DNA of 64,000 bases from Lytechinus pictus (taxonomy: Eukaryota), in assembly GCF_037042905.1 (NCBI RefSeq), contig NC_087245.1:15564001-15628000 (forward strand). Direction: 5' to 3'. The notes under the pieces are model-generated. The model saw nothing but the letters and a program-made list of their open reading frames with translations, was not told the origin of the DNA and made no database searches. Below, one piece after another: positions 6,012 through 28,400 of this stretch. Each line of letters begins with the position of its first letter. Position 1 is the first letter of the stretch. The translations under genes were made by a program, and so were the position numbers.

Positions 6012-6597
6012 AGGTCAAGTCTACCAAAGAAAATTGTTGAATTGAATTAATCAAACTTACAAACGGCTGAAAATTTCATCAAAATCGGATGTAAAATAAG
6101 AAAGTTGTGCCTTTGTAAAGTTTCGCTTATTTTTTTTTTTACAAAACAGTGATATGCACAATTTAGTGACATGCAGATGAGAGTCAACGATATCCTTCAT
6201 TCACCATTTCTTTTGTTTGAATTATACAATATTTCATTTTTTTTCTTTTGACATATTTGACAATAAGGACCAACTTGAATGTACCATATAGTATTAGTCA
6301 ATGATAATTCCACATGTTCAATGAGGAATTAACTGGTCTCTCACATGACAATGAAGAGAAAATGAGAGTACTTCATATAATACAATACTGTAAAAGAAAT
6401 AGTGAGTGAATGTCATCAGTCTCCTCATTTGCATACCGACCAGGATGTACATATAACTGTTTTGTGTAATTAAGCAAAACTTTAAAATGCCATATATTTC
6501 TTATTTTACATCCGGTTTTGATGATTTCAGCGTTATGCTTGCTGGATTTTTCTCTATTTATTCATATCAACTTTTTTGGTATTGATGGACTTGTCCT
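6012..6597. mobile_element. Kolobok/T2-type MITE (TTAA target, AGG..CCT ends)
   Basis: Long imperfect TIRs; homologous to the copies at 10081-10898 and 21321-21899; flanked by TTAA. Confidence 0.75.
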
Positions 6598-7030
6598 TTA
6601 ACCCTATCTAGGCCGGGGTATTTTGGGAGTTCATATGGCCGGTACCGCGCGATCGCGCCAAAAATTGGCACGCAGGTTGTCTGGGACATCTACAAAATGG
6701 TATATTAATTTATTTCATGCAAATTGCTATCGAGTGATTATGCTAATTTATGCGTAATTAGTATGTGAAATCATACTTTTCCCTCTAACTCCCTAAATAA
6801 AGCTCCAAATGTTCTATTTTTTGGCATAAAAACTCTTTGTGGTGTTCTTAGCAAGTGTACATGAAAAAAAAATTGCGATATCAGATCAACTTCTTATGTA
6901 TTATATTGTTTTTTGCAATTTCTTATGTATTTCTTGTTTTTGGAGTTTGGACCTTTTTTTCCCCTGTTTTTTCAATGAAATTTGTTGGGGACTCTTCTGA
7001 GATCATAAACAGCATAAAGTAAATACATTT

Positions 7031-8837
7031 TATTTATTTATTTATTTATTTTGTTTTATTTATTTTATACTGCAGGGTAGGCCTGTTCAGTTCTTAAAAC
7101 TGCTTTACAAAGGCGCCCTGCAGTTTAAAATACATGTCAAGATAACTATGAACAACAACAACAAACAACATCAAAAATACAAAATACAAAATATCTAACA
7201 TCAGAAACAATTAACACCAAAATATAGAGTGGGAAGTGACAATTTAAACATACATAGCATTGTAAATCAAAGGAATATCATTTCGCTCTTTATCAATTCG
7301 TATGAAAGGCTTTGCATAATTTTTTAAAAACTAACAAGGAGGTACAAACTTGTAAATTTGAAGGAAGTGCATTAAATAATTTGGGTCCGACATATGCGAA
7401 AGATTTTCTTTTATGTTCAATTCTAGCTTTGGGAAGCTGAAGGGGGCATCGTAAAGAATACCGTGTCCTGTATTTCACGGGCCGTTTACATACTAAAGGT
7501 TTTAAATAATTTGGAACTAAATCATTCATTATTTTATATACAAGAACACAATACTGATATTTTATACGCTGATCTACTGATTGCCACTTCAGTGACTGCA
7601 ACAAAGAAATTTGTGATGTATTATAATCTTTTTTCAAAAGCATTCTGGCATATTTATTTTGAAGTTTTTGTATCTTATCTAAATGTATTTTTGCACAGCT
7701 TCCCCAAGATGTAATACAGTAATCAATGTAAGGTAAAACCATAGAAAAGTACAGCTTCTTCATAATATCAAAGGACAGGAAGTGCTTAATCCGCCTTACA
7801 CAACCTATTGCCCGAGATATTTTACAAACGATATTAGTAATATGTTCGCACCAAGTCAAGCCCGGATCGAGCATGACACCTAAGTATTTAATCTTTTTTA
7901 CATTTTCTAATTGTATGTTCCTGAATTTCACTGACAAATGAGCACCCCTCAACTTTTTCTTTTGACCAAATACCATGGCTTTTGTTTTTTGCGGGTGTAA
8001 ATGCATATTATTTAAGTCTAGCCATTTACTTATTGAATCAAAATCATCTTGCAAATACTTTTGTACCTCCTTAATTGATTCACCGTGATTAAAAATGGCG
8101 GTATCATCAGCATAAAGAGACATTTTAGAATGTACATGCAATTTCAAATTACACATGTCATTAATAAAAATACAAAATATCAATGGACCCAGTATAGATC
8201 CTTGTGGGACACCTGATTTTATCTTCAAAAATTCACTGCGACAATTGTTAATCATTACAAATTGCCTTCTGTCTGTTAAATACGATTCCATCCAGTTGTA
8301 TTCATTGCCAGTAATACCATAGTACTTAAGTTTTGCAAGTATAAAATTGTGAGGAATAACATCAAAAGCTTTGCGTAAGTCCAAGAAAATACCACCAGTA
8401 ACATGTTTTCGGTCCATTTTATCATACAAAAAGTCTGTAATCTCAGTTAGACAAGTGGCAGTAGAATAAGACGGTCTGAAGCCAGACTGACAATTTGCAA
8501 GTAGATCATTTACATTTAAGTACTTATACAATTGATCATGTATTGCTCTCTCTAGTATTTTGGACAGGACTGGAAGCACAGAAATTGGTCTATAATTGTC
8601 AATATCAAATGATCCTCCCTTATGTACAGGAGTAATTCTTGCTGTTTTAAAATCTTCTGGAATAACACTAGTTTGTAAAGTTGCATTAAATAAATGGGTT
8701 AAAGGGCCAGCTATACTCTCTGCTGCCAGCTTAAGAAACTTAGGGTGAATGCCATCTACTCCGACCGCTTTCGAACAATCAATATGTAATAGTTCTTTCA
8801 AAACATACTCCTTTTTTATTGCATAAAATTTAAATTT
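7031..8837 (-). mobile_element. 5'-truncated L2/CR1-group non-LTR retrotransposon
   Basis: RT ORF plus an approximately 260-bp 3' UTR ending in a CAGGG..CCCTG stem-loop and an (AAAT)n tail. No endonuclease domain (5' truncated). Confidence 0.88.
7293..8837 (-). CDS. LINE ORF2 fragment, reverse transcriptase domain (uninterrupted for more than 500 codons)
   Basis: Motifs NYRPISVLPVLSKILE, QSGFR, FLDLRKAFD, GVPQGSILGP, YADD, KYLGV. The frame stays open upstream of 8801 to the truncation point, so the listed start is not a real initiator. Confidence 0.9.
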   Translation of the reverse strand, partial: KFKFYAIKKEYVLKELLHIDCSKAVGVDGIHPKFLKLAAESIAGPLTHLFNATLQTSVIPEDFKTARITPVHKGGSFDIDNYRPISVLPVLSKILERAIHDQLYKYLNVNDLLANCQSGFRPSYSTATCLTEITDFLYDKMDRKHVTGGIFLDLRKAFDVIPHNFILAKLKYYGITGNEYNWMESYLTDRRQFVMINNCRSEFLKIKSGVPQGSILGPLIFCIFINDMCNLKLHVHSKMSLYADDTAIFNHGESIKEVQKYLQDDFDSISKWLDLNNMHLHPQKTKAMVFGQKKKLRGAHLSVKFRNIQLENVKKIKYLGVMLDPGLTWCEHITNIVCKISRAIGCVRRIKHFLSFDIMKKLYFSMVLPYIDYCITSWGSCAKIHLDKIQKLQNKYARMLLKKDYNTSQISLLQSLKWQSVDQRIKYQYCVLVYKIMNDLVPNYLKPLVCKRPVKYRTRYSLRCPLQLPKARIEHKRKSFAYVGPKLFNALPSNLQVCTSLLVFKKLCKAFHTN

Positions 8838-10080
8838 AGACCAGTAAAACTAAAAAAATCATACATTTATGATTTTTGGTTGAAATAACAATTTGCATTG
8901 ACTTTGTACACGAAATCACGTTTTTGAACAATTTTTGGTCTGACATGCACGTACATAATGTTGCAGAATTTCGAAACCGCGTACCCGTGTGTCGCAAAAC
9001 TGGTCTCAAAAGTTGCGTAAGACTTGAAAGTAAAAAGTCAGCGAGCGGCACAGTAAAAAAATATTGCGCGAATCGTCAAAGCCCCCCCCCCCCCGGATAG
9101 GGTTAATATAAATGTAAAATTAAAAGTATACAAACAGCAACCTTTCTTGAGAAGAAAAAAAATAATCATTAAAAACGAATAAGCATGAGAAAGTGTTTGA
9201 GTAAAAGTATCTTTTTAATACATTTCACATGTATTCACATTCAAAGTTTCATACATGTACATGTAGCACCAATTATCATAATTCTGATGCAATAAAATAA
9301 TAAAAACAATATGAACTGTTAAAATATCTCATGCAACTAATGCTCATTCATATCTGGCAAAACAAAGTTAAGGAACATTTTGCGTGCAAAGTCAAAGAAG
9401 AATGAATCAACAACAAAAAATGTTGCAGACGATTCTTTTACATTCTTGCTGCAAAGACTGTTGACTAAATAAGTTGTCCAAAGCAGCGTTGACAAATATC
9501 AGAAACGTAACCCATGATATCACTGAAATCATTATGTCATTTTTTAACAATCTTTTAAAGAGCTGAAGTGCACATGATAAATTGTAAAACTGTGATGCTA
9601 CATGGAAGCCTAGTGGATACAAATAATATTACACTGTCTTTGTTGAAAACTTATAAATATAAATTTGATCAAGCAGCGTGATTTTACTTGCCATTTCTGA
9701 GCACTTCATATGTTGCTGAGTTTGCCAGAGGATATCTGAATGAGCCTTACATGTATATTGATAACATACATGTGCAGGTAAAGGGGAGAGGGTTGTTTCA
9801 CAAAGATTTTAAGAGTAAAAATACAGACAGGAATAAACATCTTTTTCTGGGGATTTCTATAACATTTTGTTACATTTTACTACCATCCCTAGAAACAACT
9901 TAAATTCCTTTTAAATTGGATCTGCACTATACTTGCACAAACTTGTTATCATGCGGAAATATAAAACCCTGAATTATAGTAAATTAGTGCATTGTAAAGT
10001 TAGTATTCTATTCCATGCCCTTGTAGGTGGATATATCCATACAGCCTCCATAGAGGATAAAGTATGAACTGATAGTTCTA

Positions 10081-10898
10081 GGTCAAGTCAACCCCACAAA
10101 AATGTTGATTTGAATTAATAGAGAAAAACAAACAAATGATAAAGTTATGACATTTTAAAAGTTTCGCTTATTTTTCACAAAACAGTTACATGTATATGCA
10201 CAACTCGGTGATATGCAAATGAGAGAGTCGATGATGTCCCTCACTCACTATATTTGTTTCTTATTGCTTGAATTATACAAATAAAACAATATTTCAATTT
10301 TTACTGATGTGACAATAAGGACCAACTTGACTGAACATAACAATTTTATAACAATGGTAATCCTACACGTTCAGGGAAGAACAAAACAAAGAAATAGTGA
10401 GTGGATGATGTCATCATCCACCTTATTTGCATAATGAACAGGATGTGCATATAACTGTTTTGTGAGATTAAACAAAACTTCAGAATATCATAACTTTCTT
10501 ATTTTACATCTGATTCTGATGGAATTTTAGCGTTATAATAATAATAATAATATGTTCCATTTATGTAGCGCAGCTAGTCTAATTGCAGATATACTCTACT
10601 GTGCTTGATTCTTGGTATCATATATTACCCCGGCTGTAGCTGAGCCACCGTATAGGCGCTAAAAGCATTCAAGAAATGAATCCTTCCGGGTACCCATTCA
10701 CCTCACCTGGGTCGAGTGCTGCACAATGTGGGGAAAATCAAAATTTCTTGCTGAAGGAAAACATGCCGTGACTGGGATTTGAACCCACGTCCCTCTGATT
10801 GAAAGACGAGAGTCGTAACTTCTAGACTAAGACTTGTTATGCTTGTTGGATTTTTCTCTCTTTATTCAAATCAACCTTTGTTGGGGTGAACTTGTCCT
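10081..10898. mobile_element. Kolobok/T2-type MITE interrupted by a SINE
   Basis: Homologous to the 21321-21899 copy. The left part ends ...TAGCGTTAT (about 10536) and the element resumes GTTATGCTTGTTGG (about 10836). Confidence 0.75.
10537..10835 (-). mobile_element. tRNA-derived SINE (CORE-like central domain, (ATT)n tail)
   Basis: Minus strand shows a B-box-like GGTTCAAATCC, a central TCCTTCAGCAAG...ACCCAGGTGAGGTGAATGGGTACC segment and a TATTATTATT tail. A short GTTAT duplication lies at the junctions. Confidence 0.75.
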
Positions 10899-11868
10899 TT
10901 CTGTTCATATCAACAAAATCTGTAGAGTACTTAACACAACGATCAAAGCCGAAGATTGCTAATGGGTAAAAATCCCTAACACTTTGTCGTTTAAAATTAT
11001 ATAAGAAAGTTATTAAAAAGAAAATGGGTTTTCCATAAGCCAATAAAAAGAGGTAAATGACAGCATGGACCATGATGACAGCAATCAGTTTAACTGCATT
11101 CAATATTCGTATGGGGATGGTTTGCACACTTACACAATAGCAAAGTTAAAAAGTAAAAGTTTTGACAAATAGGTGAAATTGAATGAGTGTAAATAAAAGG
11201 CACATTTCTTTAACGTACAGCAATTAAACATATATATACATACATTTCCTTTGAATGAGGACAAGATAATAAATGTATGAACATGTACTTAACATATTTA
11301 CATGATATGCATTGTACTGACTTCACTGTACAAGGCTATTTTGATCATCTCACTTATTGGGGAGGGGGGGGGGGGGAGAGGGGAGAGAGGGATGGGGCTT
11401 GTTGCAGCAGAAATCAGAATTGACATTGCTTGCAACGTTCTCAGAACTACACACTCGTATCGTCTTTTGGTTATAAATAACACAATGTTAAACTGATTCT
11501 TTCTTCAGTATGTTCTGCTTCCTAATTTTCACAGCTACATGTAGGTGGATTTAATTAAATCCATGGTCTGAAAACATGGATTGTGCTGATTAAAATTTTA
11601 TGCATTAATTACACTTAACTGCAATGATTGACTCAATAGATTATTTAAAAAAAGTCAGTATGATTGCCATGGGTTTACTCAGCTTTCCTATAATTACTTG
11701 ACCTATGAAAAGATGGACTGGTTGTTGTTTCAGAGTGATGAGTGGCCCAGCAGTGTCTGTATGTTTTCATTATTTGGTGAAATGAACCATTTCTTGTTCA
11801 AGTAGATACGTGATCCAGCAGTGTCTGTTTATAAAGAAGGGGCCATTTCCATGTCCTAAGCAGTTGGC

Positions 11869-14800
11869 CTATGAAAGGATGGACCAATTCTTGTTCAAGA
11901 AGATGAGTGGCCCAGCAGTGTCCACATCCAGAAGGGCCCTTTTCATATCCATCTTGGATGATCCTGTTATGATGTCACTCCAGGACTGGACAACAGCAGG
12001 TACGGCAAGATAACATCGTGCAATCTTCGACAGCTCAGGAAATTTACCCTGGTTCATTCTCCACCAGTCCAATGGGCACATGTCTCTTGAAAGGGGTGGA
12101 TAGGACAGGTAAGTTGTGACCTCTGCATCGGTAGTCTCTGGCTTGCTGTTGAACTCGTCTTCACCGAACAGACACAAGAACGGCGAGACACTGTTGGTAG
12201 CAGAGTCCTCAGAGTCATGATTTGCAGTGGCATGATTTGCCACTACCAGCTGCTTGAGTGCATCGATGACATCCAATTTATCATCATCTGCAATGAACTT
12301 GAGTTGCTTAAAACGTGGGTCTAGGAGTGCCGAAAGCATTGTGACTGAAGAAGGCATGATGGCATTTAAATCCCATTTCTCCCGAACCTGTAATGAAGTG
12401 CAATAATTAAAAGACATATCATAGTCACATCCTCCCTACATGTACATGTACATTAGCAATGAATTTTTAGATCCATATTTAAAGCTTTGTTTCAGCAGGA
12501 GACCTTACATTGTTTCGATCCTGTGTGAATCTGTGAAAATAACTCATACACTTAATAAAGCAAATATATTGGTGTACTGATTTTTTTCTTTTGACTAAGT
12601 CAACATTCACCGGTGTGTTGGCTCAGTTGGTAGAGCGTTCGTCTCACAACCGGGAGGTCGGGGGTTCAAACCCCGGCTGCGTCAGCCAAAAGACGTTAAA
12701 AGATGGCAGTTGCTGCTACCCTGATTGGCGTTCAACGATTAAAGGGATAGAGCCTCGTCGATCTGGCGCTGCACAGCGGCTGCCGGGCCCACGATCAATT
12801 GGGCAAAGCAAATTTTCAGAGTATTTCATTTCATGTCTATTTCGAAAAATAAATTATGGATTTCGGATTTTTTTGGATTTTACTCATGAGTTCTAATTTT
12901 CACAATCCCTGTGTTGTTTTCATGAGTAGTAAAATCAAATAAGGGACAAATTATTCATATTTGATGCATAGAGCCAAGGAAAATAAAACCAACGCAAAAA
13001 ATCTCTGCTTCCACAGTAAAGTCAACAAAGGAATGGGGGGGGGGGGGTGCCTTGGTGGAGTCCATAAATTATGAAATTTCTTTATTTAATCATTACAATA
13101 TCAAATATCACATCATTGGTTCATTTTCCCCCATGGAAATCAACTTCAAAATTTTTGCACAATCATGAGACATTTCCCTTAATAGCTTCTCATTAACAGG
13201 CAAATAACATATTGCTTTTCACAATGATTAAATAAAAAAAAAGAATTTTGCTTTGTTTTATTACTGAAGATGGTCATTTGAACAATGATTTGAATATACC
13301 TCCTTGGCAATTACTGTGAGAAATTCAGAAAGCATGGAGCCATCATCTTCTCGACCCTCGCAATGCTGCAGCATGCTGTGAACCACGGGCAAGACACAGG
13401 CAACGGAACCACTCTTCTGATCACCCAAGACTGTCAAGGCTGCCTTCAAGATTTGGAGCGAATGGACCAACTGAGCGACACCCTCCCAATCATGGAGGTA
13501 CATCAGCTGGTTCTTCTCATCCTGGGCTTTCACAGATTCAATCTCGTCTTGTAAAGCAAGGACCTAGAATGAGAAGAAAAATATGAATAAATAATTATGT
13601 CAGACTACGATGAGAATCGATGGTCCTGTAATTTGTACCAGTAAGCCTAATCAAATGTTCTTAAGATCTGAATGGTTGGGTCCAACCAACTTGGTTCAAT
13701 CTTCAAAAATCTTCAAAACATTGAAATCATGGGACTCTACAAATGACAATCATTCAGGATTTCATCAACCTTGTGTACGGAGGATATCTCTGGCTATAAA
13801 TCATCCATCACTTGTGCAAACCATGGGGGAATACTGGGCTGTGAATAAATGTAGTTAAACCCTCCATAATTTAAAAATCTCCCAAGTCAATCTGCCATTC
13901 AAACCACACAACATGAAAAATGTATTCATTTATGAGTAAAAAACAAAATAATCTCTGTGGTCCAGACATATTTGAATTAGACAAAGTTACCAGAGTATCA
14001 AAGAAAGTATCTATTTAAAAGAAAGTTTATTCTATGTGTCTCACCTCCCCTTTTAAAAATTACCACTTTTAAAAATAATACATTCTTGGAATTCCTGAAG
14101 ATCCTATGATACTGATAGAAAGTATTTTCGGTTGATTACGCGCTATTAGTGTGTGTTTCAGAGAGTTAAATTGGTATCACAAGTTTAAACGATTGACAGA
14201 TCCAACATGAGAAAATTCTCACCTTCTGTAGCATATCTGCAATGCCCAACCATGATGACTTGTTGTAGTCTTGTAGCTCTATGTTCAGTTTGCTCTCTGC
14301 TTTTGCCTTATTCAGCTTCTCATTGGGATCCTCATTATGCAAGAAATAGTTGATCATCTTGGCTGCACCCTCCACTACTACCTTCACACTAGGCAACAGC
14401 AATGCCATCGAGACACAATGCTCCAGCTTCTCCGTTGCACAGCTCATGCTGTCACAGAGCAGAGCTTCCCCAACCTTGTTGATTTGTGTAACCTTGAGTA
14501 TCCCTTGCCGATTGACCACAGCGGTTATGCTCTCCAGGGAGAGTTGGTATTGACTGATCAAGTTACGGATGCACATGTTTATCTCTGTGGTGGAGGGCTT
14601 GGTGGATACCCTGTCTGTTCCCAGCACCCAAGACTCCCGATTCCACTGATGTGTCAGGTAGTGGATAGTGACAGTAAGGTAATTGTTCTTGTCATGACCA
14701 GTCCATATCTCGTACACGAGACCAAAGTTTTTGGCATCCTTGTTGAGGCAGATCTTCAGCTTCTCCTGGTAAGAGGAGTAAAAATATTCATATGAGCCTT

Positions 14801-17800
14801 TCTAAAAAATCTGACATCTTTGAACATAGATCTTTGTATTGTCCACAGTACAATAAAATGGAAATGACATACATGCAATGTTCAACCATGGACAGATAAA
14901 CATTGTTTTATTTGCAAATTTATTACAATCTCACTCTCTTTTGAACTGCTAACAAATAAGATGAGGATGAATGGTATTGCACACTTTAGTATCTGTTTTT
15001 AAAAAGCTCTGATAACGAGATATTTATAACCCACAAAATGTTGCTGTCTGTTTGGTAAAGGTTAAATGTGTGTTTAGCTATAGAGATTTGTCCACAAAAG
15101 AAAATATTTTTATTTTTTCTGCTTCGAGGTGATTTGATGAATTAACAACCCAAATACAGTTGAAGGCAATACCCGCATTTCTTCTTGGGCAATACATTAT
15201 ATTATAGTGTCATCAAGAAGACAAAATATGATCAGGCGAGTGAAATATATGAAGGCTGCCATCCCCACTAAAAATCACCAAGTCCAATTGAACAGTCTTC
15301 CATTAGACTCTATCATGGGGGCCTTTTCTGAGATAAAAGACAAGGTTTGAACATGATATCCTTGGATAGGATCCATTAAATTAAGACAAAACCATTAACA
15401 AAAGAATGCCTCATTAAATCATTTTTTTCCAAGACAATGCATGACTTACCTGTGCCTCTTCATATTTTCCCATCAACATTGACTGAGCTACCTTTTTGCC
15501 AAGCATGGGATAACCAGGTTCCATCTCTTGGATAAACCGGATGAACCCTTCGTCTTCAACCATGCTCACTGGTAGAAGGCTCTGAGCCAGGAGCATCACA
15601 ACATGCGAGTGGATAAATTTGGATCTCTCTGGGCCACAGGTAATTTTCGCTATGGTGCCGGATGCTGAGGTGGACGGCATTGCTACATTGTGCCCACGTG
15701 AAGAGCTCTTGCTTGATGGGGATCCACCTACACGGAATGTTGGACCAGACTTGATTGTTCGAACCCTTCTTCCTGTCTTCCATTCTCCCCCTTCTTTGTA
15801 AACTCTTGCAGATGGCCCACTAACCTTCATGACCAAGACAGTAAAAAACAAAATAATCTATTTTAGCTTTCATCAATTATGAACTTGAATTTCTCCATAA
15901 AACATGTGTCCGGATCTCATATTTTTCAACTAACTCTTTTATTTATTTTCCCTTTAACTGTAAGAATCATCAGTCAAATTCTATAAATGTTCCATTATAT
16001 ATTTTTTTCTAATCCTTATGTAAGTCAACTCAACAGTACATGATTATGACTTGAAGACAAAAATAATGAACAGAACATATTTCTTTTAAAGAATTGAATA
16101 TGTGTCAAGTTTCAAACCTCACCATCAGTCTGAAAATTCTATTTACTAATTATACATTTTGGATATCAGGTTAATTTGAGGAGTGGAGTTACAGAAGATT
16201 ACAAAGGACTTCATCACCAAATGTTTACATGTCATGACAGGTGTTTAAATATATTGTTGTAAAGATGCCCCTCTGAACAAGTGCAAAAAAATGGGTATCG
16301 TTTTCTAGTTGTGAACTTGTGATTATATTTATAAGCATGTGGCACAAATGATAAAAAAATTGATAAGGGAATTTTCTAGTTTAAACTTGTTTCAGGGGGG
16401 GGGGGGGGTATACAGTGTACTATAACTCGCCAATCAATATGCGAGCGTGCAGCGCTGGCTTATATTAACTTATACTTTTTGACAATCAGACCTGAAAAAG
16501 GGTATTTTGAAAACTTTATGGAATACAAGAAAATAGAAGTATCTGATAAATCAAAATTTGCGAGCGAGCAGAAAATATTAATATTCAGACAATAAAACTG
16601 ACATTTTTACAGAGCACTTTATAAAAATCAATTTGTAAATCACACAAAATAACGAAAGTTCGATTTCCGAGGTGAAATATGTTTTGTATATTGACTTCCA
16701 AACTTGATATTTAACAAGTTATGTAAATCACCTAACAGGCAATGCGAGCGCGAGCGAAACATTTTATATAGTGACATGAAAGATTCTTTTTATTTTCCAA
16801 ATCTTCCCCCCATTTTGATGTTATGTTATTCACTCGTCTTCCACCTCTTCTTTTTTGTCCTCTCTTTGACTCTTTTCCTTTTTTTGCGCGGCCAATAGGG
16901 GGGCCCGGGCCCCCTGGATCCGTCTATGTACATGAAACATGATACACCGTTACCCAAAAAGCTCTGGCTCGCGAAGTGGGCCGGAGCCCAGGAGTCGACC
17001 ATGCAAAACGAGGGAGACACGGTAGATTGGTGTCTCAATAGTAATCTAATCTTAATAAAATGTGGAAACAGAAATTATGCACTTACCACGATTATATAGA
17101 TGAAGGTCTATCGTGACACACAAATCCTGACATCGAGGAACAGACTGGAACCTCAAAAAACAAAATATAGTCTCGGTCTCGATCGGCCATTTTGTTTTGA
17201 ATTTTTGAAAGGAGAGGTTTCGCGACAGAACTTTTCTGTTTTTTTTAGGTTCCAGTCTGTGCCTCGATGTCAGGATTTGTGTGTCACGATAGACCTTCAT
17301 CCATATAATCGTGGTACTGGTAAGTGCATAATTTCTGTTTCCACATTTCATTAATTTAAGATTACTATTGACTTGTCTATTGAGACCCCAATCTACCCTA
17401 GTGTCTCCCTCATTTTGCAGTCGACTCCTGGAGCTCCCTGGCCTGGGTTAGATACACCGTTGCGTTGGCGCGTTCTAAAGTTGTAACTTGTGATTCTGTG
17501 CAATTGCAACATTGATCGACTATAAACATAACAGTTGTCAGTTAGTAAATCTAGCATAGTGAGTGATTGTATTACCGACCGGTCTTGTATTATCGAACGG
17601 GCGCATCGTACGCATCAGAAAATAATTTCATACGCTCAAAACTTTGCAACATCATCCAAAGGGAACTTGAAAAGAAAGATGATGAAAAATGGTCAAAAAT
17701 ACATTTTCAAAGTCTTAATATTCTAGAAATAATAAAAAATGGTCAAAATAGCTCATCAGTGATTTTGTTGTTTTCTCAAATTTTCCCATAGAAAACACAC

Positions 17801-19755
17801 GTTTGGTAATATACGATACCTTTTTCAAGTGACCAAAATATTTCACATGTGAAGAGGGGTCCGATTGCATTGGAAGCTAATATCATAAAAAAGAAAAACA
17901 ATTTTGGCAAAATATTTACATATTTATATTTTGTAGGTAATTGTGTACTTAAATTATGGTGAAAGTTTGGTGAATTTCATGAGAATAATATTAATAATGT
18001 GTTTGATATGAATTATGATTGAATTCATGAAAAGTGTTCGGTAACGATCCACTACCAAGTATGGCAGTGAGTCCAAACTTCGCGCGTGTCCATACTTCGC
18101 GGACGGTCATTATCTAAAAAACTAGCCAATATCCTTAAAATCTGACATCATCAACGTGAAAAGCGACCTAAAATTACCCTTTGGTGTAAGTTTCTTTAGG
18201 ATGAGTTCAGTATTCATGAAAATATTGGCAAAAGATCGGCAAATTTGTCACCGTTAGCGCCCGTTTTGAAGAAATCTGATATTCTCAACAAGCATCACGA
18301 TATCAGTATCACCATTTTGCAAGCAGAAATCATCAAAAATGTGAGTTAAATGTGGTACTAACCAATTCTATAGCATTTTGCCATCAATCTGATATAAATA
18401 TTTCACTTTTTGAGCTTGAGTTTTTGTTTAAATGTCCACCAAAACTTTGGTACGCGAAGTTAGGTCACACTTTTTCTGAACGTTTTCCAACACAGCGCGC
18501 ATTCGCCGATCGGAATAGAATTTTGAGATCGCGATACCGGCGAATTCCCTTGACCTACTTTACATTTTCGTCCATGATTTTATAGTTTACGATCTTGCCG
18601 TCAATGTGGTTACTATTTCTTGAATTGGTTTTGTATGATTTATGAATATTTTGTGAAAAAATTTAAACCTGATGAATATTTTTGAAAAGTGCGCGAAGTT
18701 TGGACACCCCATCATACCATGCATACGGTAGGATGGGGAGTCGGGTGTCCAGACAGTTTATAATTATATATTCTTGAGGCCTTCTTTTTTGTCTTTGGAT
18801 TGCACTAAAAATATGAATTCGATAGTTGTAATCATCTTAATATTTAGTTCTCTATAATATTTCCTAACATTTTGTAATAAAAATTGATGAAACTTCACTT
18901 GTATTTGTAAATTTTTCCAAATGACGTTCTAAGACTAAGTTAAATTGATCGTCCGGACACACATTTGACACAACCTGTCCGGACACACAACAACTGGGTA
19001 TACGGTACATCTATATTATTGTGACCAAGTGATTGCAAACTATCACTTAGCTTATGAAATTGTGAAAGCCACTAGCTTAGGGCCTAGCCCTAGGCTAAGT
19101 TAAATAACACGAGAGGACAGCAGCAGGGATTTGCTCCCAGCTTGCTCCCGTCCGCTCGGGCGCCACGCCATCGGCACCGGCGGGGCCCGAGCTGAGCGTG
19201 AGCCCTAGGCCTAGGAAAAAGGCGAGAAATCTGTTGAGGCCGAGACTCGACTTAACTCGATCCGACACGGCGACAGCTAAACGTTACTCGTTAGCTGCGC
19301 ACACGATTACAATTGCATGCGGTGGACATCTTAAATTCGTCACCCAGAATACGTCATGCATCTCAAAATACGACTTTTCACTCACCAAACACACTGAAAA
19401 GCACTCTAGAATATTTTCAAAACTCGACTTGATTTACAAAGTCTGATCTAATCGTAACCGATATGAATTACCGATTTAGAATTCACATGTCGATCGTGTC
19501 GCGATAGGACGACTACACGCGATATAATACACATCAAGCACGTACCTCGAATTCTTGCATTTGATGGGACGCAGTCAGATGATAACGCAAGTTTGTAGTG
19601 CCGCCTGTGTACTTCATTGTTTTGTTGCAAATATTACATCGAGCAACTTTCGCATCTATATCGCAGGTAATATACTGCCAGACCTGAGACCTGGTTGGGG
19701 TGTTTCTTTTCCCCGGTGTCTTCGGCATAATCGTGGAGATTTTAGTCTCTTCCAT
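11869..19755 (-). CDS. ZBED1/DREF-like BED zinc finger protein derived from a hAT transposase (5 exons, about 636 aa), probably domesticated and catalytically inactive
   Basis: Exons 19546-19755 (BED finger VWQY..CNIC..GGTTNLRYHLTASH), 15450-15824, 14223-14765, 13300-13563, 11869-12387 (LSALLDPRFK; PLDWWRMNQGKFPELSKIARCYLAVPA, the hAT C-terminal dimerisation domain). All four introns are GT..AG and phase 0, and the joined frame is open. The exon 2 acceptor (AAG at 15825) is the least certain boundary. Confidence 0.88.
12609..12880 (+). mobile_element. tRNA-derived SINE with a Meta-domain-like core, in intron 4 of the ZBED-like gene
   Basis: A box TGGCTCAGTTGG, B box GGTTCAAACCC, then CCAAAAGACGTTAAAAGATGGCAGTTGCTGCTACCCTGATTGGCGTTCAACGATTAAAGGG and a (GGATTT) repeat tail. 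The acceptor stem does not pair. Confidence 0.78.
16950..17450. mobile_element. Foldback (near-fully palindromic) non-autonomous DNA transposon
   Basis: Inverted arms of about 200 bp around an approximately 70-bp spacer; direct repeat GATACACCGTT at 16941 and 17451 (9-11 bp TSD). Confidence 0.85.
18060..18716. mobile_element. TIR MITE, family shared with 54295-54912
   Basis: GTCCAAACTTCGCGC / GCGCGAAGTTTGGAC inverted ends; collinear similarity to the copy near 54.3-54.9 kb. Confidence 0.7.
18724..19008. mobile_element. Small MITE with TGTCCGGACA motifs; a related inverted copy ends near 42801
   Basis: TACGGTAGGATGGGGAGTCGGGTGTCCAGACA resembles the reverse complement of 42770-42801. Confidence 0.45.
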
Positions 19756-20561
19756 CTTAAAACTTTAGTGAAATTTGTTCGGTCAAAAATATCGATCAAA
19801 TTTTCGATGTGTCGGCTTCCCGCTTGCTCACGATCTGATATCGGAGATATACGTACGTGCATGACGTATGATCGAGAGGAGCAGTCTAGTCTATATAAAC
19901 GACGTAAATACAATTACATGCAGCGCGCGCAACCGGATCAAAGTTCATCGAGGCCAAGGAATTTAACGAAAATTCGTATTTACATATGTCTATTAATATA
20001 TAAATTCATTTGAATAAAAATGTTCGGAAATTAAATATTTCTCAAGACAAAAATGGGAATTATTCAATTTACACGATAACACAAAGTTCTTTCTTATTCA
20101 ATTTCAGACTGGCACAAAGTCTAGGGATGTCTGCAAATTGAAGGATATAAAAGGGGCCGCCTGTTTTTTTTTTTAAATAAAGGCTTGTATAACAAATGCA
20201 ATATTTCTGCACAAATTTATCATTTAAATCAAATGTCTTAAGTATATAGGTTTAAAATATTATTGCAAATATGTCATAACAAGTTGATGTGTTAAGTATT
20301 CTATATCTTGACCCGGGGAAATACCCCCCCCCCCCCATCATGTCAACAATAAAGGCTGTCGATCTACCCCTTTTTCCGGATTTAGGGAATTTCAGTATGG
20401 GCTTTTTCACTGAACGAAATCCAAACAATAGCAAGCCAAGTAGACTTCTTATAGGCCTGTATATAGGCATATATATGCATATATATAGCCATTCTCTCTC
20501 TAGGCCGGCCTCCTATCATATAGCTATGATCATTATCATCATATCATTGCTATTATTCAAT

Positions 20562-21240
20562 TTAAAGGAGTAATCCGGGCTGAAAATAATTATATCTAAA
20601 TAGAGTAAAATTAAGTGAGCAAAATGCTGGATCGAAATTTCATCAAAATCTGATGATAAAGTTATTGCATTTTAAAGTCAAGCAATATTTTGCAAACTGA
20701 ACAGTTATCATGTCGTCATGAATATTCTGATGTGACATCATTTCCTTTTTCTTATTTTATTACATGAAATCATAATCATGTCACATTTTTTATATGTGAA
20801 TACAATGAATACCTTATATATGCATTGAATCAGTTGGAAATCCATATTTTTAGTTCTTGGAAGATTTTAATCAATAATTTTATGTAATAAAATACAAAAG
20901 AATGGGGATATGACATCAGATTCCTCATTGAATATTCATGAAGACACATCATGCATAGAACTAGAAAGCGTTTCATCAATGTTTTTGTCTGACAAGTTGT
21001 CAGGTCTGACAACTTTCCGTGATTATGATTGGTTGAGAGTCGCCGTTACCATAGTAACTGTCAGATAAAACAGTACTTGTCAGATAAAACATCTAACAAG
21101 TCCTTCCTTGAAACGGTCCCCAGATTCACCAAAATAATGCAAATCCAAATCTTTTCACTTTTTTATTCTGATTGTGATTGAAAATTCAGTTTTGTCTAAT
21201 TTTCCTGTAACTTCAAGTAATATTACTTTCAGCCTAGGGT
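20562..21240. mobile_element. Kolobok-type MITE with a small Harbinger-like palindromic MITE inserted at about 20967-21122
   Basis: TTAAAGGAGTAATCCGGGCTGAAA start and degenerate TTTCAGCCTAGGG end. The inner CTGACAA/TTGTCAG element resembles 1491-1652. Confidence 0.55.
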
Positions 21241-21320
21241 AACAAATTATCAATATTTTAATATTGTTATTTTGTTATCAGTTCCTTGAGAGTGTTAGCA
21301 AAATATGTCTACCCTTTTAA

Positions 21321-21899
21321 AGGACAAGTCCACCCCAACATAAAATTGATTGGAATAAAAAGAGAAAAATCCAACAAGCATAACACTGAATATTTCATCA
21401 AAATCGGATGTAAAATAAGAAAGTTATGACATTTTATAGTTTCACTTAATTTCACAAAACAGTTATATTCACATCCTTGTCGGTATGCAAATGAGGATAC
21501 TGATGACATCACTCACTCACTATTTCTTTTGTAGTTTATTATGTGAAATATGAAATATTCCAATTTTCTCCCTGTTGTCATGTGAAACAACGATTAATTC
21601 CTTCCTGAACATGTGCAATTAGCATTGTTTAATTCTATATGGTTCAATCAAGTTGGCCCTTATTGTCAAATCTGTAAAAAATGAAATATTGTATAATTCA
21701 AACAATAAAAAACTAAAGAAATAGTGAGGGACATCATCGACTGTTTCATTTGCATATCAGTTTTGTGAAAAATAAGCGAAACTTTTAATGTCATAAATTT
21801 CTTATTTTACGTCCGATTTTGATGAAATTTTCAGCATAATGCTTTTTTTATTTTTCTCTTTTTATTCAAATCAAAATTTTTCTGTGGTGGACTTGACCT
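21321..21899. mobile_element. Complete Kolobok/T2-type MITE
   Basis: TTAA|AGGACAAGTCCACC ... GGTGGACTTGACCT|TTAA, with imperfect TIRs longer than 120 bp. Confidence 0.85.
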
Positions 21900-22774
21900 T
21901 TAAGCAATATTTTCTTCCTTAGTGTACACATGAATGCAAAATGCAAACAAAAAAGTGCTTACATGTATTTTCACTTGATGTCTACCTTTGGCTTAACAGT
22001 TGCTCAATATGTGATTGCTTGTCAAGCAAATGCTATTTTTTGTTATGCATTCTGCAGATTTTCATGCATGCATGAAGTAAGTTTGAAGTTGGTCCCTTGA
22101 AAGTTTCTATGGTTACTACAAGAATATAACATTTTAGGTATACAGTGACATCTGTGAACTATGACCATGTCAGATTATTATCCTCCCAATTAGATGCATG
22201 ACATGACCCATGGGAGAATATTCTCGATACCGGGTATATATTTTTATGAGAGAATATATTGAATAATATCTTGAGAGATATAGTATGAAATATGACTAGT
22301 ACTACTCAATATCAAGATAATCTCTTCATGTCATTTCAGGAAGCCTGGACTACTATCAATTTCAAAGTACTTTCAATATTGATTGCAACTTTGCCGGGGT
22401 GAGGTAAAAAGGGATAGGATTAACCACACATAAATAAAAATCAAAGTATGGAAATGAAATTTTACCATTACCATGGATTCAATTTTTTATTACATTTTCA
22501 CATATAGATGATACATATATTTGATGGTAAATAATCTTTTGCCATCATCCTACTTATAATATTCTGCAGTACAATGAAGTTTACTATACGATTAGCATCA
22601 ATATTTACACATGTACACAATCCTATTTTGCCAGGCTATTTGCCACAACGATAACATGTTATACAACTCATTAGGCTGAGAATGCCTACAAATAAAAATT
22701 TAGTATTAACAATATATGAATGGAAATTATACTTGAATGGCACATTATGTGAAAGAGATGTTGCAAAACCTTAA

Positions 22775-23136
22775 AGATAAATTCCAGTTGTGGGGACGAT
22801 GTCAAAATGACTTTTTACAGAATTTAATATAATGATCACCAAAGTGTCTGTTTGTATGAATAAAAAATATGTGCCAAAGGATTCTAGAAGAAAGTGTGTA
22901 ATTGCTGAGAAATAAGCAAAATAAGCGCGGATTCTGTCACTTCCGTCGGGTCTTTATTCCAGCAATAATGATACACTGTCCCACGTATGCCTATCTGTGT
23001 TGGCGATCTTCAGTGTGCTTGCTTTTTAGCTTAGATATTATTATTTATTATTTATTTATGTAACTGTACCAGATCTAGATCCACGATGATATAGTAATAC
23101 TTAACCTTGGTTTTACAGACTTTCTCACATTTAGCT
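22775..23136. mobile_element. Kolobok-type MITE (second family)
   Basis: TTAA|AGATAAAT ... ATTTAGCT|TTAA termini. Confidence 0.6.
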
Positions 23137-25415
23137 TTAAAACTTATTTCTGAGAATATCTCAAACACCTTCCCCCAAATCAAAGGTAAAAATTGATAGA
23201 AAATATCCATACTTGACACAAACTTGTGAGCTTGGTTTAATAGCTACATATAATAAGACAAAAAAGAAAAGGGTTCTTGATCCCTGCTGTGACAGTGAAA
23301 CTTTGTCATTTGACAAAACATTCAACTACATCATCAACTCTCTCATTAACTGATAAATGTAGGAAGAAAAATATTGTTGAGTGTCAAGAATGGAAGCTTA
23401 ACAGAGCCATGGAAGTAGCACCTGGTAATATTGTAACAGCACAAAATATCAAAACATAGGAAAGTGACTGGCAATAATTTTCACATGAATGCCTGCCTCT
23501 TGAAGTCACCATGAATGTTTCTATAAAAACTACATGTATACGTAAATTTTTAGGGAAAACAGGGTGACAATAATTATGAAACAGTAAAATTCAAAATATG
23601 TTTGGTTTTTTTTTAAACAAAAACTTGTTCATAGGATTTCAGAAAAGTTTTACATATTCATAGGACATGGAAAAATAGACTCTCCTTATGGCCAAATTAC
23701 ATTCATGATGGCTACCAGACTCAGTAGACCATACCAGTATTTTATTTCATATATCAGGGGAAATAGAAAAGAAGGCTGATTTTATTAGGTCATAATTTCA
23801 TTAGAGTAAGAATATCAACGAAATAAAAACAGGAACATAATTTTACATGAAGATGACATAAGTTATTTTGCTCAAAACTTCAAAGTTAAATATCTTAACT
23901 GAGAGGTTTCGAGCAAATTCACATAGACTGTTTCTACCCTTATTTACTAACTTCTGTGTCACATCAAAGGCAAAATTGTCACTTTGTCAATGTCAAGTGT
24001 CATTAAAAAAATTATTCTATCAATTTCTTCAAAAGATTTATGAATACTTTATCAAATTCACAAGTTCCATAAGTCAATGTTAACTGAGACAAAACAACTC
24101 AACCCAATATTCGATCGATGAAAACACGATTATTCTTTTACTCATGACATAGTCTGTGTATACAGACCCCCAACAGAGCAAGATTATAACACCAGTTACT
24201 GTAACAAGATCAGAGTCATACACCTTTATAACTATGTTATTTGTCCCCCATCTTTTAGCGGATACATAATGCAACTTCTTAAATGTTATATCACCTAAAT
24301 GATATCTAAATTAAGTACAGTGATATTTTGAACATGAGGCTCTAACTGGAATTGCTAAACATGTGTATCATAAGACACTACCTCTTCAACTCCATGACAC
24401 CCATGCCACCCCAGAGAAATCACAGAACAGAGCAAGAAACAGAAACACAGGTAAATTTGCATTTATAAATCGACCCTCTGTAAGTCATATATTTACCCGA
24501 GTCCAAGCAATTTCTTCAACCAGATAATGCAAAACTTGTTATACGCCTGTTCAAAATCAAATTTGTCTTAAGTCAACGGATTTGTTTGGTCCCAACAGAT
24601 TCAACTTGAGCAAAATTACCTGTATTCAATTTTCAGAGGGTATTTAATGAGAAATTGGGTAGATGCTGAACAGTTGGTACATGTAGTTTTTCAGGTTGAA
24701 ATCATTACATTTACAATAAATCGATCAGACAATAAGCAAGACTGGGCAGTTCTGAATCTCAGAATCCCACCCAGGTACGCTCCAAGGGAAGGGGACATGA
24801 AAGGCGCGTGGAGTTCCTTCTGGGTATGATATGGCTGCTTCACAACTGAAATAAGAGATAACTTGATGCAGAACTTCTAGTTCAAATTCTTTATGCATGC
24901 TTAAAGTAATTCCAACCTTAATTAGTTCTGATGCCATGTTGGTGTCATACATGGCAATCTGATGCTATCAATCCAGGCATGGGGGGGGGGGGGGTGCTAT
25001 CCCATTGAGGTGGATTGGTTTGAAGAGGACATGCTAAACTGGGCAAAGTGGCAGGATGGGGTATCTGCCTTCTGAAAGCAGGGACATTGGAGGAGGGGCT
25101 ATGGGCAATTGCAGTAAGTATGAGTTAAATCCGGCTACCCTAGTGAACAGGGGACAAAGCCAAATTCAAAACTTTGGATTACCATCTGACTAATATTTTC
25201 ATGAGTAATGCTTGAGCAGGCTCACACAGAGACTCCCATGACAATTTTGCCTTGCATGACCCATTTCAAGTTTGGTATTTTCATTCATGATCGGTGTGTT
25301 TGCATAAATCATTTCTACATCAGTTTTTGTCCTTGCATAAAACCATTTAAAGTCGGGTATTCTCATTCATATTCAATTTCACTAGTCCATGCATGCATTA
25401 GATGTTTGTTGATGA

Positions 25416-28400
25416 TCATAAACTCTCATCACTCTCATTAGCTTGGAGTTGCATGTCCTCTCCATCCAGTATGCTATCCCTTGACGTGTCTTCTGTAGGA
25501 TCAGAATCTTCAACACCTCCTATGTATGTTGGAATCAAAAGAGAGGTAAAAAAGAGGAACCTAGTAAGACATAATATTCAACTGAAAGGTGGGTATTCTC
25601 ATACCAATGATTATATCAACCCTAGACCAATCGAGACCAGGTATGGAGTGCCTATTTCTAACAAATTCACCAAAAACATACAATGATCCTAAAGTGAAAT
25701 TGTCAAATTAAACACTTAATTTTGCATGCTTTGTTACACATTACCAAATGCTCATTTATATTTGTGTGTGTGTGTGTGTGTGTGTGTAGACATTAACATC
25801 TTAAGGTGATGTAATATATAACAAATAACATTCTTTCTGTCTCTTTTTAATTTCAAAGGACATGTTCAAAAGATTAATGGCTTCCATTCCCACCAGCACC
25901 TGTTCCAAAGAATTGACAAGAGCTGTTGCTAACCATCTCACCCAAGATATGAAACCTATCTATAACCTTTAGAAATGGGCTCTGTGAAATGCTAATCATG
26001 TTTGACCCCACATATACGCTTCCTTCAAGAGACATTTTGTACAGTTTTCATACAAGAAATTACATAACGCCATGGTGAACCATTGGATGTCGAGATAAAA
26101 AATTCTGCCTTCGCATTGAATCTTCTCATTTCCAAGAACATGACCCAATACCTCTGACTACATCTCAGCATTAATCTTGTCAACAATAAAAGAGTGGAAG
26201 CATCTAACTTGGCGGTAATGAATACAAACAATACCGCACATAAAAAAAAAATGGACACGGCAACATGCACTAGACTTGAGTGCCAGAGCAGGACTTGACT
26301 GCAAACTAATGCTTATCCCACTGGTAAGATGTGTAAAACTTGCAGTTTATTCAAAGAAGCACTGATAAATTGTATCTACTATTGGACAAGAGGCAACTGA
26401 ACCTTTCTAAAACCCTCCAAACCCATATCTTGCAGAATGATTGAACGAGGTCATTGAGTGACTGAAGCCAATGCATGATCACTCTGATTTCTTTTGTAGC
26501 AGCTCACTTACAATATCTAGTGTTTTAGCTCAAGCGGGTGTTCCAGATCGAAAATTGTTTGATGATAAAGAAGAAGCATAGTGTTTGTTTTTGTGAGATA
26601 ATTGAAATGATGAAAGGAAAATTGAATGACATGTTTTTTTCGTATCAATTTCAGCATTAATTTGATGAAAGGATATTATTTAATTGATGGAATAAACCCC
26701 CCCCCCCAAATAAAAAGGCAGATGTAAGGAATTGATGTACATGGTGTTACTACTGCATACAGAGTACTTCAGTATGTCCTCATCATTTTTCATTTCAATT
26801 TCAGCATTTTTATGACCCTAATTCAGTAGCAGACGACAAAAAAAAAATGCCAAAAATCAAATCTGACATGAAATGGTTAAAAAATGGCCAAAGGTATGAT
26901 CACATAAAGGCCAATCTACACTGATTTCAATGCGGCTAAGTAGGTATTCACAAGGCGAATATATGGGTCCAGATGAACCACTCCATTTGGGCTATGGATG
27001 TTTTTCATCATGCTCCACAAAGAAATAGAATCCAAAATGTTTTATGTAATGTCATTGCTTTAGTAATGTAAGTAATATATTGAGATTTAACATACCTTGA
27101 CTGGGTGTGTCTGCTTGAGCTAGAGCAGCAACTGCTGGTTCATCATCCTCAGGAAGATAATGCTTGTCCAGAGCTTCTTTGATCTGACTGTTGGCTCCTT
27201 TAGGATCTAGGTCTAAGGCCCATGAGAAGTTTGCCAAGGCTTGATGAGTTTGACCTAGCTTCTTGTATACCTGTAAATGCAAGAAGATAGCTGTTACGTA
27301 TAGTATATAAGGCTTTGGAGTGTTGGAGATAAACTAGTTCATTTTTTGACCTGCAAAAGAAAACACTCCATGCTAGCAGGGATTATCCCAGACATTTGCT
27401 CTTGCTTTCATTTTTCTGAAGATATGCATTTTCATGGGAAGTAAAATACTATGAGGATAAAGATTACGGTGAGAATTACTATGATTTTTTTATTAAGATT
27501 TCATTGTAGAAAATGATTTTGTTCTATAATAAGAACTATGAGGTGGAAACGCACCCAACTGTTATCTTTTAGGTGAAACAAATTGATAAAATATCAAACA
27601 AATATAGATATCAAATAACAATTGTTGTTGTTGGTATGAGAGCTTTGTTGGACACATACCTTTCCTATAAGGAAGTAGACTAATGATTCTGATGGTGTCA
27701 TCTGTTTCATTTCTTCTAGCTCTTTCAAGGCATCCTGTAAAGATAGCAGGTACAAAATTATCATTCTCATCATCATCATCATCATCATCATTGATATTAT
27801 AAATATTGCTATCATCCTCACCATGAAATACTTAAACTTCCTGTATTTCATAGTGAGTTTGAAACCACTACAAAGCTATCCTGAATAGAAAAGTCTTCAT
27901 TTATGTTAATAGTGAATAAAAATCATCATCATCATCATCATCACCGCCATCATCATCATCACCACCGTCACTACCACCGCCATCATCAAATTTAGAATTG
28001 TCCTCCATGTGTGATCACTGATTAAAGTTGATTCGCATTGCATGCTCTTGAACCTTTATTTGCCTATCTCCATCTTTCATATGACCTCCTAGTACTAGTG
28101 GTTGGAGTGAACAAGCATCTTTTTAAGACTTTCAAAAATTTCATAATATAATGTTAGACGAAGCATCCTACCTGGTATTTCTCAGTTGCAAATAATATTG
28201 AAGCACGATGAAACCTACAAAGAGGGTTGTTTGAATCAAGGCGTACAGCTTTGGCTAGAGTAGCAAGGGCCTGTTCAGATTTGTGAAGGGCATGTTGAAC
28301 CTGGTTTTAAAGAGAGAGAAAAATTAATAATAGCAAATGTCTATTCAACATACCTACTATTCAGATTTATGTGGAATAATATGGGAACGAAATCCAATAA

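What the first reader, a model, noticed from the sequence alone, without database searches (positions are those of the whole stretch)
11869..19755. Candidate domesticated hAT transposase: intron-containing ZBED-like gene with an intact BED finger but a dead DDE triad
Seen: five exons join into an open frame of about 636 aa; all four introns are phase 0; the introns host other elements (MITEs, a foldback, a SINE); no TIRs or TSD are evident around the gene. Established: hAT transposases need a DDE triad in motifs like TTD.WT, TDN and PATS..SER.FS, plus CxxH and RW. By-eye alignment gives VYEIWT (D to E), VVNRQG (D lost), CATEKL (H lost), SSW (R lost) and PAVVQSWSDIIT (E lost), while the BED CxxC..HxxxxH and the dimerisation domain are retained. 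Inference: a host gene exapted as a DNA-binding regulator, analogous to DREF/ZBED1 but probably an independent, lineage-specific domestication. It could also act as a dominant repressor of the many hAT elements in this genome.
Basis: partly seen in the sequence, partly recalled or inferred. Interest (0 to 1): 0.78.

Follow-up and report, generated by a model that had tools for sequence, protein, structure and literature searches.

The report
Sea urchin tamed hAT transposase gene
This is a real, spliced, single-copy sea urchin gene descended from a jumping-gene enzyme that has lost its DNA-cutting residues but kept its DNA-binding finger, and it is one of three related genes kept in distantly related sea urchins, most likely as gene regulators.

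Summary
Observation confirmed. Five minus-strand exons give a 636-aa protein identical to RefSeq XP_054752503.2 (Lytechinus pictus, auto-named 'ZBED1-like'). All four junctions appear in two stranded RNA-seq runs. The gene is single-copy, with no hAT-type TIR/TSD. It folds like Hermes, but the second Asp, the Glu, the CxxH His and the RW Arg are gone; the first Asp is Glu here and Asp in Diadema. Orthologues are 98% (L. variegatus), 82% (Strongylocentrotus) and 71% (Diadema) identical, so it is over about 200 Myr old. Rough dN/dS is about 0.13. A and B share three introns and an identical BED recognition helix. Best reading (about 70%): a dimeric, sequence-specific DNA-binding host regulator, analogous to but independent of ZBED1/DREF. 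The 'hAT repressor' idea has little support. Introns alone prove nothing, since active-looking hATs in this genome have them too. Restriction to sea urchins and all function are unshown. It is a new member of a well-known kind, not found in my paper searches.

The parts
19546..19755 (-). Exon 1 coding part, aa 1-70: BED zinc finger (C40, C43, H59, H64) with recognition helix TTNLRYH
19756..19847 (-). 5' UTR (spliced contigs of organism B end at 19839-19847); lies in a CpG-rich, promoter-like stretch (CpG o/e 1.5-1.65 at 19251-20250)
15825..19545 (-). Intron 1, 3721 nt, phase 0; position shared with paralogue B; holds multicopy repeats and a foldback (17035-17371)
19497..19506 (+). Exact match to the 10-bp human ZBED1 binding consensus (hDRE), 40 nt into intron 1; not found near the starts of paralogues B or C; post hoc lead only
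15450..15824 (-). Exon 2, aa 71-195: basic, disordered linker, then N-terminal helical domain; predicted homodimer interface aa 140-172
14766..15449 (-). Intron 2, 684 nt, phase 0; position shared with paralogue B
14223..14765 (-). Exon 3, aa 196-376: RNase H-like core and start of the insertion domain; D1=E214, D2 lost (N280/R281), CxxH His=E307, RW Arg=S366
13564..14222 (-). Intron 3, 659 nt, phase 0; position shared with paralogue B
13300..13563 (-). Exon 4, aa 377-464: helical insertion domain
12388..13299 (-). Intron 4, 912 nt, phase 0; absent from L. pictus paralogues B and C; holds a tRNA-headed SINE at about 12609-12863 (+ strand)
11869..12387 (-). Exon 5 coding part, aa 465-636 plus stop: hAT C-terminal region (W572, W573, L583 kept); catalytic Glu = S601
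11200..11868 (-). 3' UTR; stranded reads run at least to the edge of the stretch laid (11200)

Best explanation
An Ac-type hAT transposase was tamed once in an ancestor of euechinoid sea urchins and duplicated into three host genes, ((A,B),C); this window holds A. The protein can no longer cut DNA. It keeps the transposase scaffold, pairs through its N-terminal helical domain (with the hAT C-terminal region helping self-association, as in ZBED1), and so presents two BED fingers to a short, probably palindromic DNA motif. It most likely acts as a nuclear transcription or chromatin regulator, with the dead catalytic body serving as a partner-binding scaffold. A and B carry the same recognition helix, so they should read the same motif. 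Shown: gene structure, expression, single copy, conservation, loss of catalytic residues, one clade, predicted fold. Modelled only: homodimer. Inferred: DNA binding, target motif, regulatory role.
For: Spliced and expressed from the minus strand. One DNA copy in the 812-Mb assembly for both stretches searched. Orthologues in 5 named species at 98/82/71/71% identity to the L. pictus protein. BED (80%) and C-terminal region (82%) are the best kept parts against Diadema, the linker the worst (53%). Rough dN/dS for exons 2-4 is 0.12-0.13 (7 amino-acid changes among 22-23 nucleotide differences; binomial p below 1e-5; see caveat). AlphaFold model pLDDT 78.6, pTM 0.70; the top 10 Foldseek hits are all Hermes chains, E 5e-16 to 1e-13. 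A+B+C form one clade at FastTree 98 on 154 rows, IQ-TREE C20 100/98 on 40 rows and 100 after dropping 9 other dead long-branch rows. A and B share 3 intron positions. The segment YTGGTTNLRYHLTA(A/S)H is invariant in 7 of 7 A and B proteins checked, although A and B are only 42-46% identical; it covers the positions that read bases in Hermes (T65, S66, N67, R70; PMC10368747, passages). W572/W573/L583 match by spacing the ZBED1 residues W590/W591/L601 needed for self-association (PMC7471704, passages). Homodimer model of aa 133-630: score 0.42, best of 3 controls 0.00, runs agree in at least 63% of contacts, pLDDT at least 76. That mark was reached by 21 of 30 solved homopairs and 0 of 23 single chains (eukaryotes 17 of 29, animals 7 of 16, single chains 0 of 30), and may come from likeness to solved Hermes dimers.
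Against: No binding, localisation or loss-of-function data exist here. The dN/dS figure is rough: it pairs nucleotide counts from unnamed organism B with amino-acid differences from P0004 and assumes they encode nearly the same protein. No SUMO-acceptor consensus was found in 3 of 3 A proteins, so nothing supports the RefSeq 'SUMO ligase' label. The hDRE match is not repeated near B or C. The whole transposase body is conserved, not only the BED finger, which also fits a structural or protein-scaffold role. An acidic residue is kept at D1 in all A and B proteins tabulated and D602 sits next to the lost Glu; this is unexplained.
Confidence: 0.7

Rival explanations
1. Host defence protein: the dead transposase blocks active hAT elements, either by occupying their subterminal repeats or by poisoning transposase oligomers.
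For: The genome holds hAT transposases with intact D, D, E, CxxH and RW motifs, some in several near-identical copies (L009/L010/L015/L028; L019/L025). The dimer scaffold is retained.
Against: The BED fingers visible in the 20 other hAT loci examined have other recognition helices (e.g. TTMNSH, SNLMSH, TNLARH, SNLRRH), and a BED-exon search of the genome finds only A and B as strong matches (5 matches of 10 candidates scored). The active elements are only 21-29% identical. An invariant helix over more than 200 Myr fits fixed host targets better than an arms race. These searches score only the best candidates, so a matching family could be missed.
Confidence: 0.1
2. Chromatin-architectural or scaffold protein (insulator or boundary type, as BEAF-32; name recalled) whose main output is not gene-specific activation or repression.
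For: The full fold is conserved, including the dead core (73% against Diadema). Three paralogues could form mixed oligomers.
Against: It cannot be told apart from the best explanation by sequence. No direct evidence.
Confidence: 0.12
3. It is the sea urchin orthologue of vertebrate ZBED1 (or of another vertebrate dead ZBED clade), i.e. one deuterostome-wide domestication rather than an independent one.
For: RefSeq name. The best PDB match to the BED exon is human ZBED1 BED (2ct5, E 3e-5) with a similar helix, including the Tyr before the first His. In the careful tree a group of dead proteins that includes a stingray protein named ZBED1 (P0078) sits near A+B+C (91/94, not starred).
Against: The BED lacks the 7-residue loop of ZBED1. 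That Tyr occurs in 15 of 172 BED fingers among non-family hits. The coelacanth ZBED1-like protein P0021, which has the loop, is 23% identical and falls elsewhere in the tree. Unnamed transposases with intact motifs score better than any named vertebrate protein. PMC3606216 (parts 1-2 of 4 and passages) places ZBED domestication in jawed vertebrates and reports the DDE triad conserved in vertebrate ZBEDs. The grouping of dead proteins may be long-branch attraction. Full-length ZBED1 was not available for the tree.
Confidence: 0.05
4. A decayed or non-autonomous transposon copy with no host function.
For: Introns and an open frame also occur in active-looking hATs of this genome.
Against: Single copy, no TIR/TSD, intact orthologues at 71% across the euechinoid root, low dN/dS, spliced mRNA in two organisms.
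Confidence: 0.01

Closest known systems
Vertebrate ZBED1 (hDREF/TRAMP) and the Ac-derived ZBED genes (PMC3606216: parts 1-2 of 4 and passages; PMC7471704: passages)
   Same: Full-length hAT-derived host protein with one N-terminal BED finger, RNase H-like core, helical insertion and hAT C-terminal region; WW..L self-association residues kept; similar recognition helix.
   Different: Not shown orthologous, and probably independent. PMC3606216 reports the DDE triad conserved across vertebrate ZBEDs, whereas here two of three residues plus CxxH His and RW Arg are gone. It lacks ZBED1's long BED loop. It has four coding introns and belongs to a three-gene sea urchin family. SUMO-ligase activity is untested.
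Drosophila DREF (PMC7471704, passages) and BEAF-32 (recalled)
   Same: Invertebrate domestication of a BED-finger hAT protein; likely dimeric DNA binder.
Hermes and active Ac-family hAT transposases (PDB 4d1q, 6dww, 8edg; PMC10368747, passages)
   Same: Same fold over about 530 columns; predicted N-terminal dimer interface; BED Asn kept.
   Different: Catalytic residues lost; single copy; no TIR/TSD; Hermes R70 position is Tyr.
Plant DAYSLEEPER/RICESLEEPER and vertebrate GARY-type domesticated hATs (recalled; RefSeq names the L. variegatus orthologue 'RICESLEEPER 3-like')
   Same: Catalytically altered hAT-derived host genes.
   Different: Unrelated host lineages; the name is an automatic best-hit label.

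Membership tests
Active hAT DNA transposon | Intact D, D, E triad with CxxH and RW | tested here: not met
Active hAT DNA transposon | TIRs with 8-bp TSD around the gene | tested here: not met
   0 found at up to 2 TIR and 1 TSD mismatches (4000-11300 against 19850-28000); 17 against 11.8 shuffled at looser settings
Active hAT DNA transposon | Multiple dispersed copies | tested here: not met
Domesticated hAT-derived host gene (ZBED-type in the broad sense) | hAT transposase homology with BED finger and hAT C-terminal region | tested here: met
Domesticated hAT-derived host gene (ZBED-type in the broad sense) | Single-copy, immobile, orthologues in related species | tested here: met
   tree of A follows the species order Diadema, Strongylocentrotus, Lytechinus
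Domesticated hAT-derived host gene (ZBED-type in the broad sense) | Purifying selection on the reading frame | tested here: met
   71% identity to Diadema with intact frame; rough dN/dS 0.12-0.13 (with the stated caveat)
Domesticated hAT-derived host gene (ZBED-type in the broad sense) | Expressed, spliced transcript | tested here: met
Domesticated hAT-derived host gene (ZBED-type in the broad sense) | Conserved gene neighbours (microsynteny, e.g. CDC27) | not testable with these tools
   CDC27 lies upstream here; no other urchin genome DNA could be fetched. Only same-chromosome location is inferred from equal contig lengths
Domesticated hAT-derived host gene (ZBED-type in the broad sense) | Sequence-specific DNA binding and a host function | not testable with these tools
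   inferred from conservation only
ZBED1 orthologue | Groups with ZBED1 in a tree | tested here: inconclusive
   No full-length ZBED1 in the set; ZBED1-like P0021 does not group with it; a weak, unstarred grouping with other dead proteins is seen
ZBED1 orthologue | ZBED1-type BED loop and retained DDE residues | tested here: not met
   7-residue gap against 2ct5; triad lost, against PMC3606216's report for vertebrate ZBEDs
ZBED1 orthologue | SUMO E3 ligase activity | not testable with these tools
   label comes from RefSeq only

The most novel reading that the evidence does not exclude
A and B, which share an invariant recognition helix with the ZBED1-type N-x-x-Y-H base-reading positions, bind an hDRE/DRE-like palindrome in CpG-rich housekeeping promoters, including A's own first intron. 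With C they form homo- and heterodimers. Sea urchins would then have built a DRE/DREF-like regulatory system a third time, independently of flies and vertebrates, from a different hAT lineage, and elaborated it into a three-gene combinatorial family at the root of euechinoids.
Probability: 0.12. Interest if true: 0.75.

Novelty: new member of a known kind. Interest (0 to 1): 0.43.

Why it matters
Repeated taming of hAT transposases into regulators is well documented in vertebrates, flies and plants, so the kind is not new. What this adds is an old (over about 200 Myr), three-gene, fully dead family in a main model of developmental gene regulation. It hides under misleading automatic names ('E3 SUMO-protein ligase ZBED1-like', 'RICESLEEPER 3-like', 'ZBED4-like') and can be tested directly in L. 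pictus embryos. If its motif turns out to be DRE-like, it becomes a clear case of convergent recruitment of transposases to the same promoter element.

Tried and rejected
Paper searches (9): 'sea urchin+domesticated+hAT+ZBED' 0; 'ZBED+hAT transposon+domestication+Strongylocentrotus' 0; 'echinoid/transposase-derived/lineage-specific genes/zinc finger BED', 3 of 4 terms, 0; 'sea urchin+hAT transposase+domesticated' 1, a Drosophila MITE paper, listing only; the same paper alone; 'sea urchin+BED finger+transcription factor+transposase' 2 unrelated, listing only; one search gave the ZBED papers; two searches were for dates. PMC3606216 has no occurrence of urchin, purpuratus or echinoderm. Subscription papers (e.g. 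Arensburger 2011, recalled) and supplements were not seen and might list these genes. PMC9859435: abstract and outline only, not used. PMC9339218: passages, no usable date. Metagenome scan: 21 loci, none above 43% identity except one 16-residue match, none recognisably of this family. ESM Atlas gave only generic BED/hAT clusters for P0001 and did not identify P0073. Flanking inverted repeats as element ends: rejected, two separate MITEs. Introns as proof of domestication: rejected. hDRE autoregulation: the 10-mer is unlikely by chance within A's own 1.3-kb region (1 of 300 shuffles) but was picked after seeing it, and it is absent from the same regions of B and C; the 6-bp core and DRE counts are not enriched. 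No indexed run holding the stretch was on record as RNA; this is no evidence either way, and the raw RNA runs were laid instead. No AU test was run. A codon-level dN/dS was not possible, as no orthologous CDS could be fetched. Earlier scan notes had nothing on this sequence.
Full report
Observation. The window is part of contig C1 (44.3 Mb; 15,564,001-15,628,000) of an 812-Mb assembly. Five minus-strand exons (19755-19546, 15824-15450, 14765-14223, 13563-13300, 12387-11869), all phase 0, join to 636 aa. The translation is identical to RefSeq XP_054752503.2 of Lytechinus pictus, auto-named 'E3 SUMO-protein ligase ZBED1-like'. Two raw stranded RNA runs, of which about 6% were read, show all four junctions (X19: 13, 7, 9, 11 reads for introns 4 to 1; X21: 9, 2, 10, 7). 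Depth in mainly exonic bins is about 6-18x from one strand and near zero in introns 2 and 3. Two contig sets of a second organism (RNA is a guess there) hold 2.5-kb contigs with the same four joints. The upstream neighbour on the same strand is CDC27.

Catalytic state. phmmer to Hermes (E 5e-12) and alignments with closer transposases put D1 at E214, D2 at N280 or R281 (aligner-dependent; no acid at 276-290), the CxxH His at E307, the RW Arg at S366 and the catalytic Glu at S601. The roles of these motifs are established knowledge of hAT transposases (recalled). D1 is Asp in Diadema A and in all five B proteins tabulated, so it stays acidic. The AlphaFold model (pLDDT 78.6, pTM 0.70) matches Hermes in all top 10 Foldseek rows. 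The fold is whole and the active site is gone.

Not a mobile element. Two DNA stretches of the gene each match one place in the genome. A directed scan found no hAT-type TIR with 8-bp TSD. The long inverted repeats around the gene (10080-10900 and 21317-21903) are two palindromic MITEs. Introns do not count as evidence: among 20 other hAT loci of this genome, some with intact D, D, E, CxxH and RW motifs are also split by apparent introns (L009/L015, L019/L025).

Conservation. Orthologues exist in L. variegatus (98%), S. purpuratus (82%), Diadema antillarum and D. setosum (71%). Diadematoids belong to Aulodonta, and the earliest euechinoid splits are dated around the Permian-Triassic boundary and within the Triassic (PMC8940180, passages), so the gene is over about 200 Myr old (period boundary recalled). 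Against Diadema the BED (80%) and C-terminal region (82%) are best kept and the linker worst (53%). In exons 2-4, organism B differs at 22-23 bases while P0004 differs at 7 residues. With 913 N and 269 S sites this gives dN/dS of 0.12-0.13. This is rough, because it assumes organism B encodes nearly P0004.

Searches found two further dead paralogues, B (42-46% to A) and C (about 29%), each with named records in L. pictus, S. purpuratus and D. antillarum. In this genome C and B lie in tandem at C1:36.81-36.83 Mb, 21 Mb from A. Equal contig lengths suggest A shares a chromosome with B and/or C in four species. Consecutive D. antillarum accessions for C, A and B (XP_071489460-462) hint at an ancestral cluster; this is a lead only. 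A and B share three intron positions; C has two others; intron 4 is private to A among the L. pictus genes. A+B+C is one clade in three trees: 98 (FastTree, 14 family and 140 other rows of 450-999 aa), 100/98 (IQ-TREE C20, 40 rows) and 100 (31 rows, nine other dead rows left out). All three replace the CxxH His by Glu and lack the RW Arg and the catalytic Glu. C may keep a shifted second Asp, but its D1 is lost in Diadema. Diadema is the first branch in each paralogue, so both duplications predate the euechinoid split.

Range. No protein named from outside sea urchins fell in the clade. Only the best 150 of 6292 representative hits were listed and most are unnamed. Two unnamed dead proteins (P0073, P0108) are sister at weak support (90/76). 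Restriction to echinoids is therefore likely, not shown, and no cidaroid record was identified.

Mechanism. The stretch YTGGTTNLRYHLTA(A/S)H is invariant in 7 of 7 A and B proteins checked. It spans the positions that read bases in Hermes BED (T65, S66, N67, R70; PMC10368747, passages), with Tyr at the R70 position. W572, W573 and L583 match by spacing the ZBED1 residues required for self-association (PMC7471704, passages). A homodimer model of aa 133-630 scored 0.42 against 0.00 for the best of 3 controls, with runs agreeing in at least 63% of contacts and pLDDT at least 76; the interface is aa 140-172. That mark was reached by 21 of 30 solved homopairs and 0 of 23 single chains (animals 7 of 16), and the pass may reflect solved Hermes dimers. 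The best reading is a dimeric, sequence-specific DNA-binding regulator whose dead core serves as a scaffold (0.7). Binding and function are inferred. The transposon-repressor reading is weak (0.1), because no other hAT examined has this recognition helix and active elements are 21-29% identical.

Relation to ZBED1. Human ZBED1 BED is the best PDB match to exon 1 and shares the Tyr, and an exact hDRE 10-mer lies 40 nt into intron 1. Against reading much into this: the Tyr occurs in 15 of 172 BED fingers from 103 of 151 non-family proteins, the 7-residue ZBED1 loop is missing, the hDRE is absent near B and C, and the ZBED1-like coelacanth protein groups elsewhere. PMC3606216 (parts 1-2 of 4 and passages) places ZBED origins in jawed vertebrates, reports their DDE triad conserved and does not mention sea urchins. 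So it works like ZBED1/DREF but is probably not their orthologue; full-length ZBED1 was not in my trees.

Verdict. This is a real, well-supported domestication, older and larger than first read. It was not found in the searches, which do not cover subscription papers or supplements. It is a new member of a known kind. Interest 0.43. The convergent DRE-like system is the boldest open reading (0.12; interest 0.75 if true).

Noticed in passing
L011/L014 (G000:C8:13.289-13.293 Mb): Another hAT-derived gene with two BED fingers, CxxH His and RW Arg lost but D1 and Glu kept; its apparent intron falls at the same protein position as in the active-looking L009 family. Possibly a second, separate domestication (P0107 looks like its relative).
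   Followed up: partly
L031-L033 (G000:C1:36.811-36.831 Mb): Paralogues C and B in tandem on the minus strand. RefSeq lists two B loci in L. pictus and two C loci in S. purpuratus; only one B was seen in the 40 kb fetched.
   Followed up: partly
P0005, P0010: RefSeq predicts a BED-less isoform X2 of gene A in both L. pictus (518 aa) and D. setosum (512 aa). No alternative joint into exon 2 was among the joints shown (32 more were not shown); a few minus-strand reads lie at 19104-19407. If real, it could be a natural dominant negative.
   Followed up: partly
window 10080-10900 and 21317-21903: Two copies of one palindromic MITE family flank the gene; the right one has TTAA-AGG ends (Kolobok/T2-like, name recalled).
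   Followed up: partly
window 7293-8849 (-): 518-aa open frame with a reverse transcriptase domain (Pfam RVT_1, E 7e-38), a LINE remnant downstream of the gene.
   Followed up: no
window 11691-11922: Short internal duplications (21-44 nt) between the last codons of the gene and its 3' UTR (D5, D6, D8).
   Followed up: no
P0021, P0157: Coelacanth ZBED1-like protein with an N-terminal SET/PR domain (PF00856, PF21549) fused to a dead hAT body.
   Followed up: no
P0073, P0108; P0078, P0079, P0094, P0104: Two further clades of catalytically dead BED-hAT proteins, one unnamed and one including ray proteins; possible other undescribed domestications.
   Followed up: partly
L034: A repeated block of about 4 kb (near-identical ORF translations about 4080 nt apart) upstream of paralogue B.
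   Followed up: no
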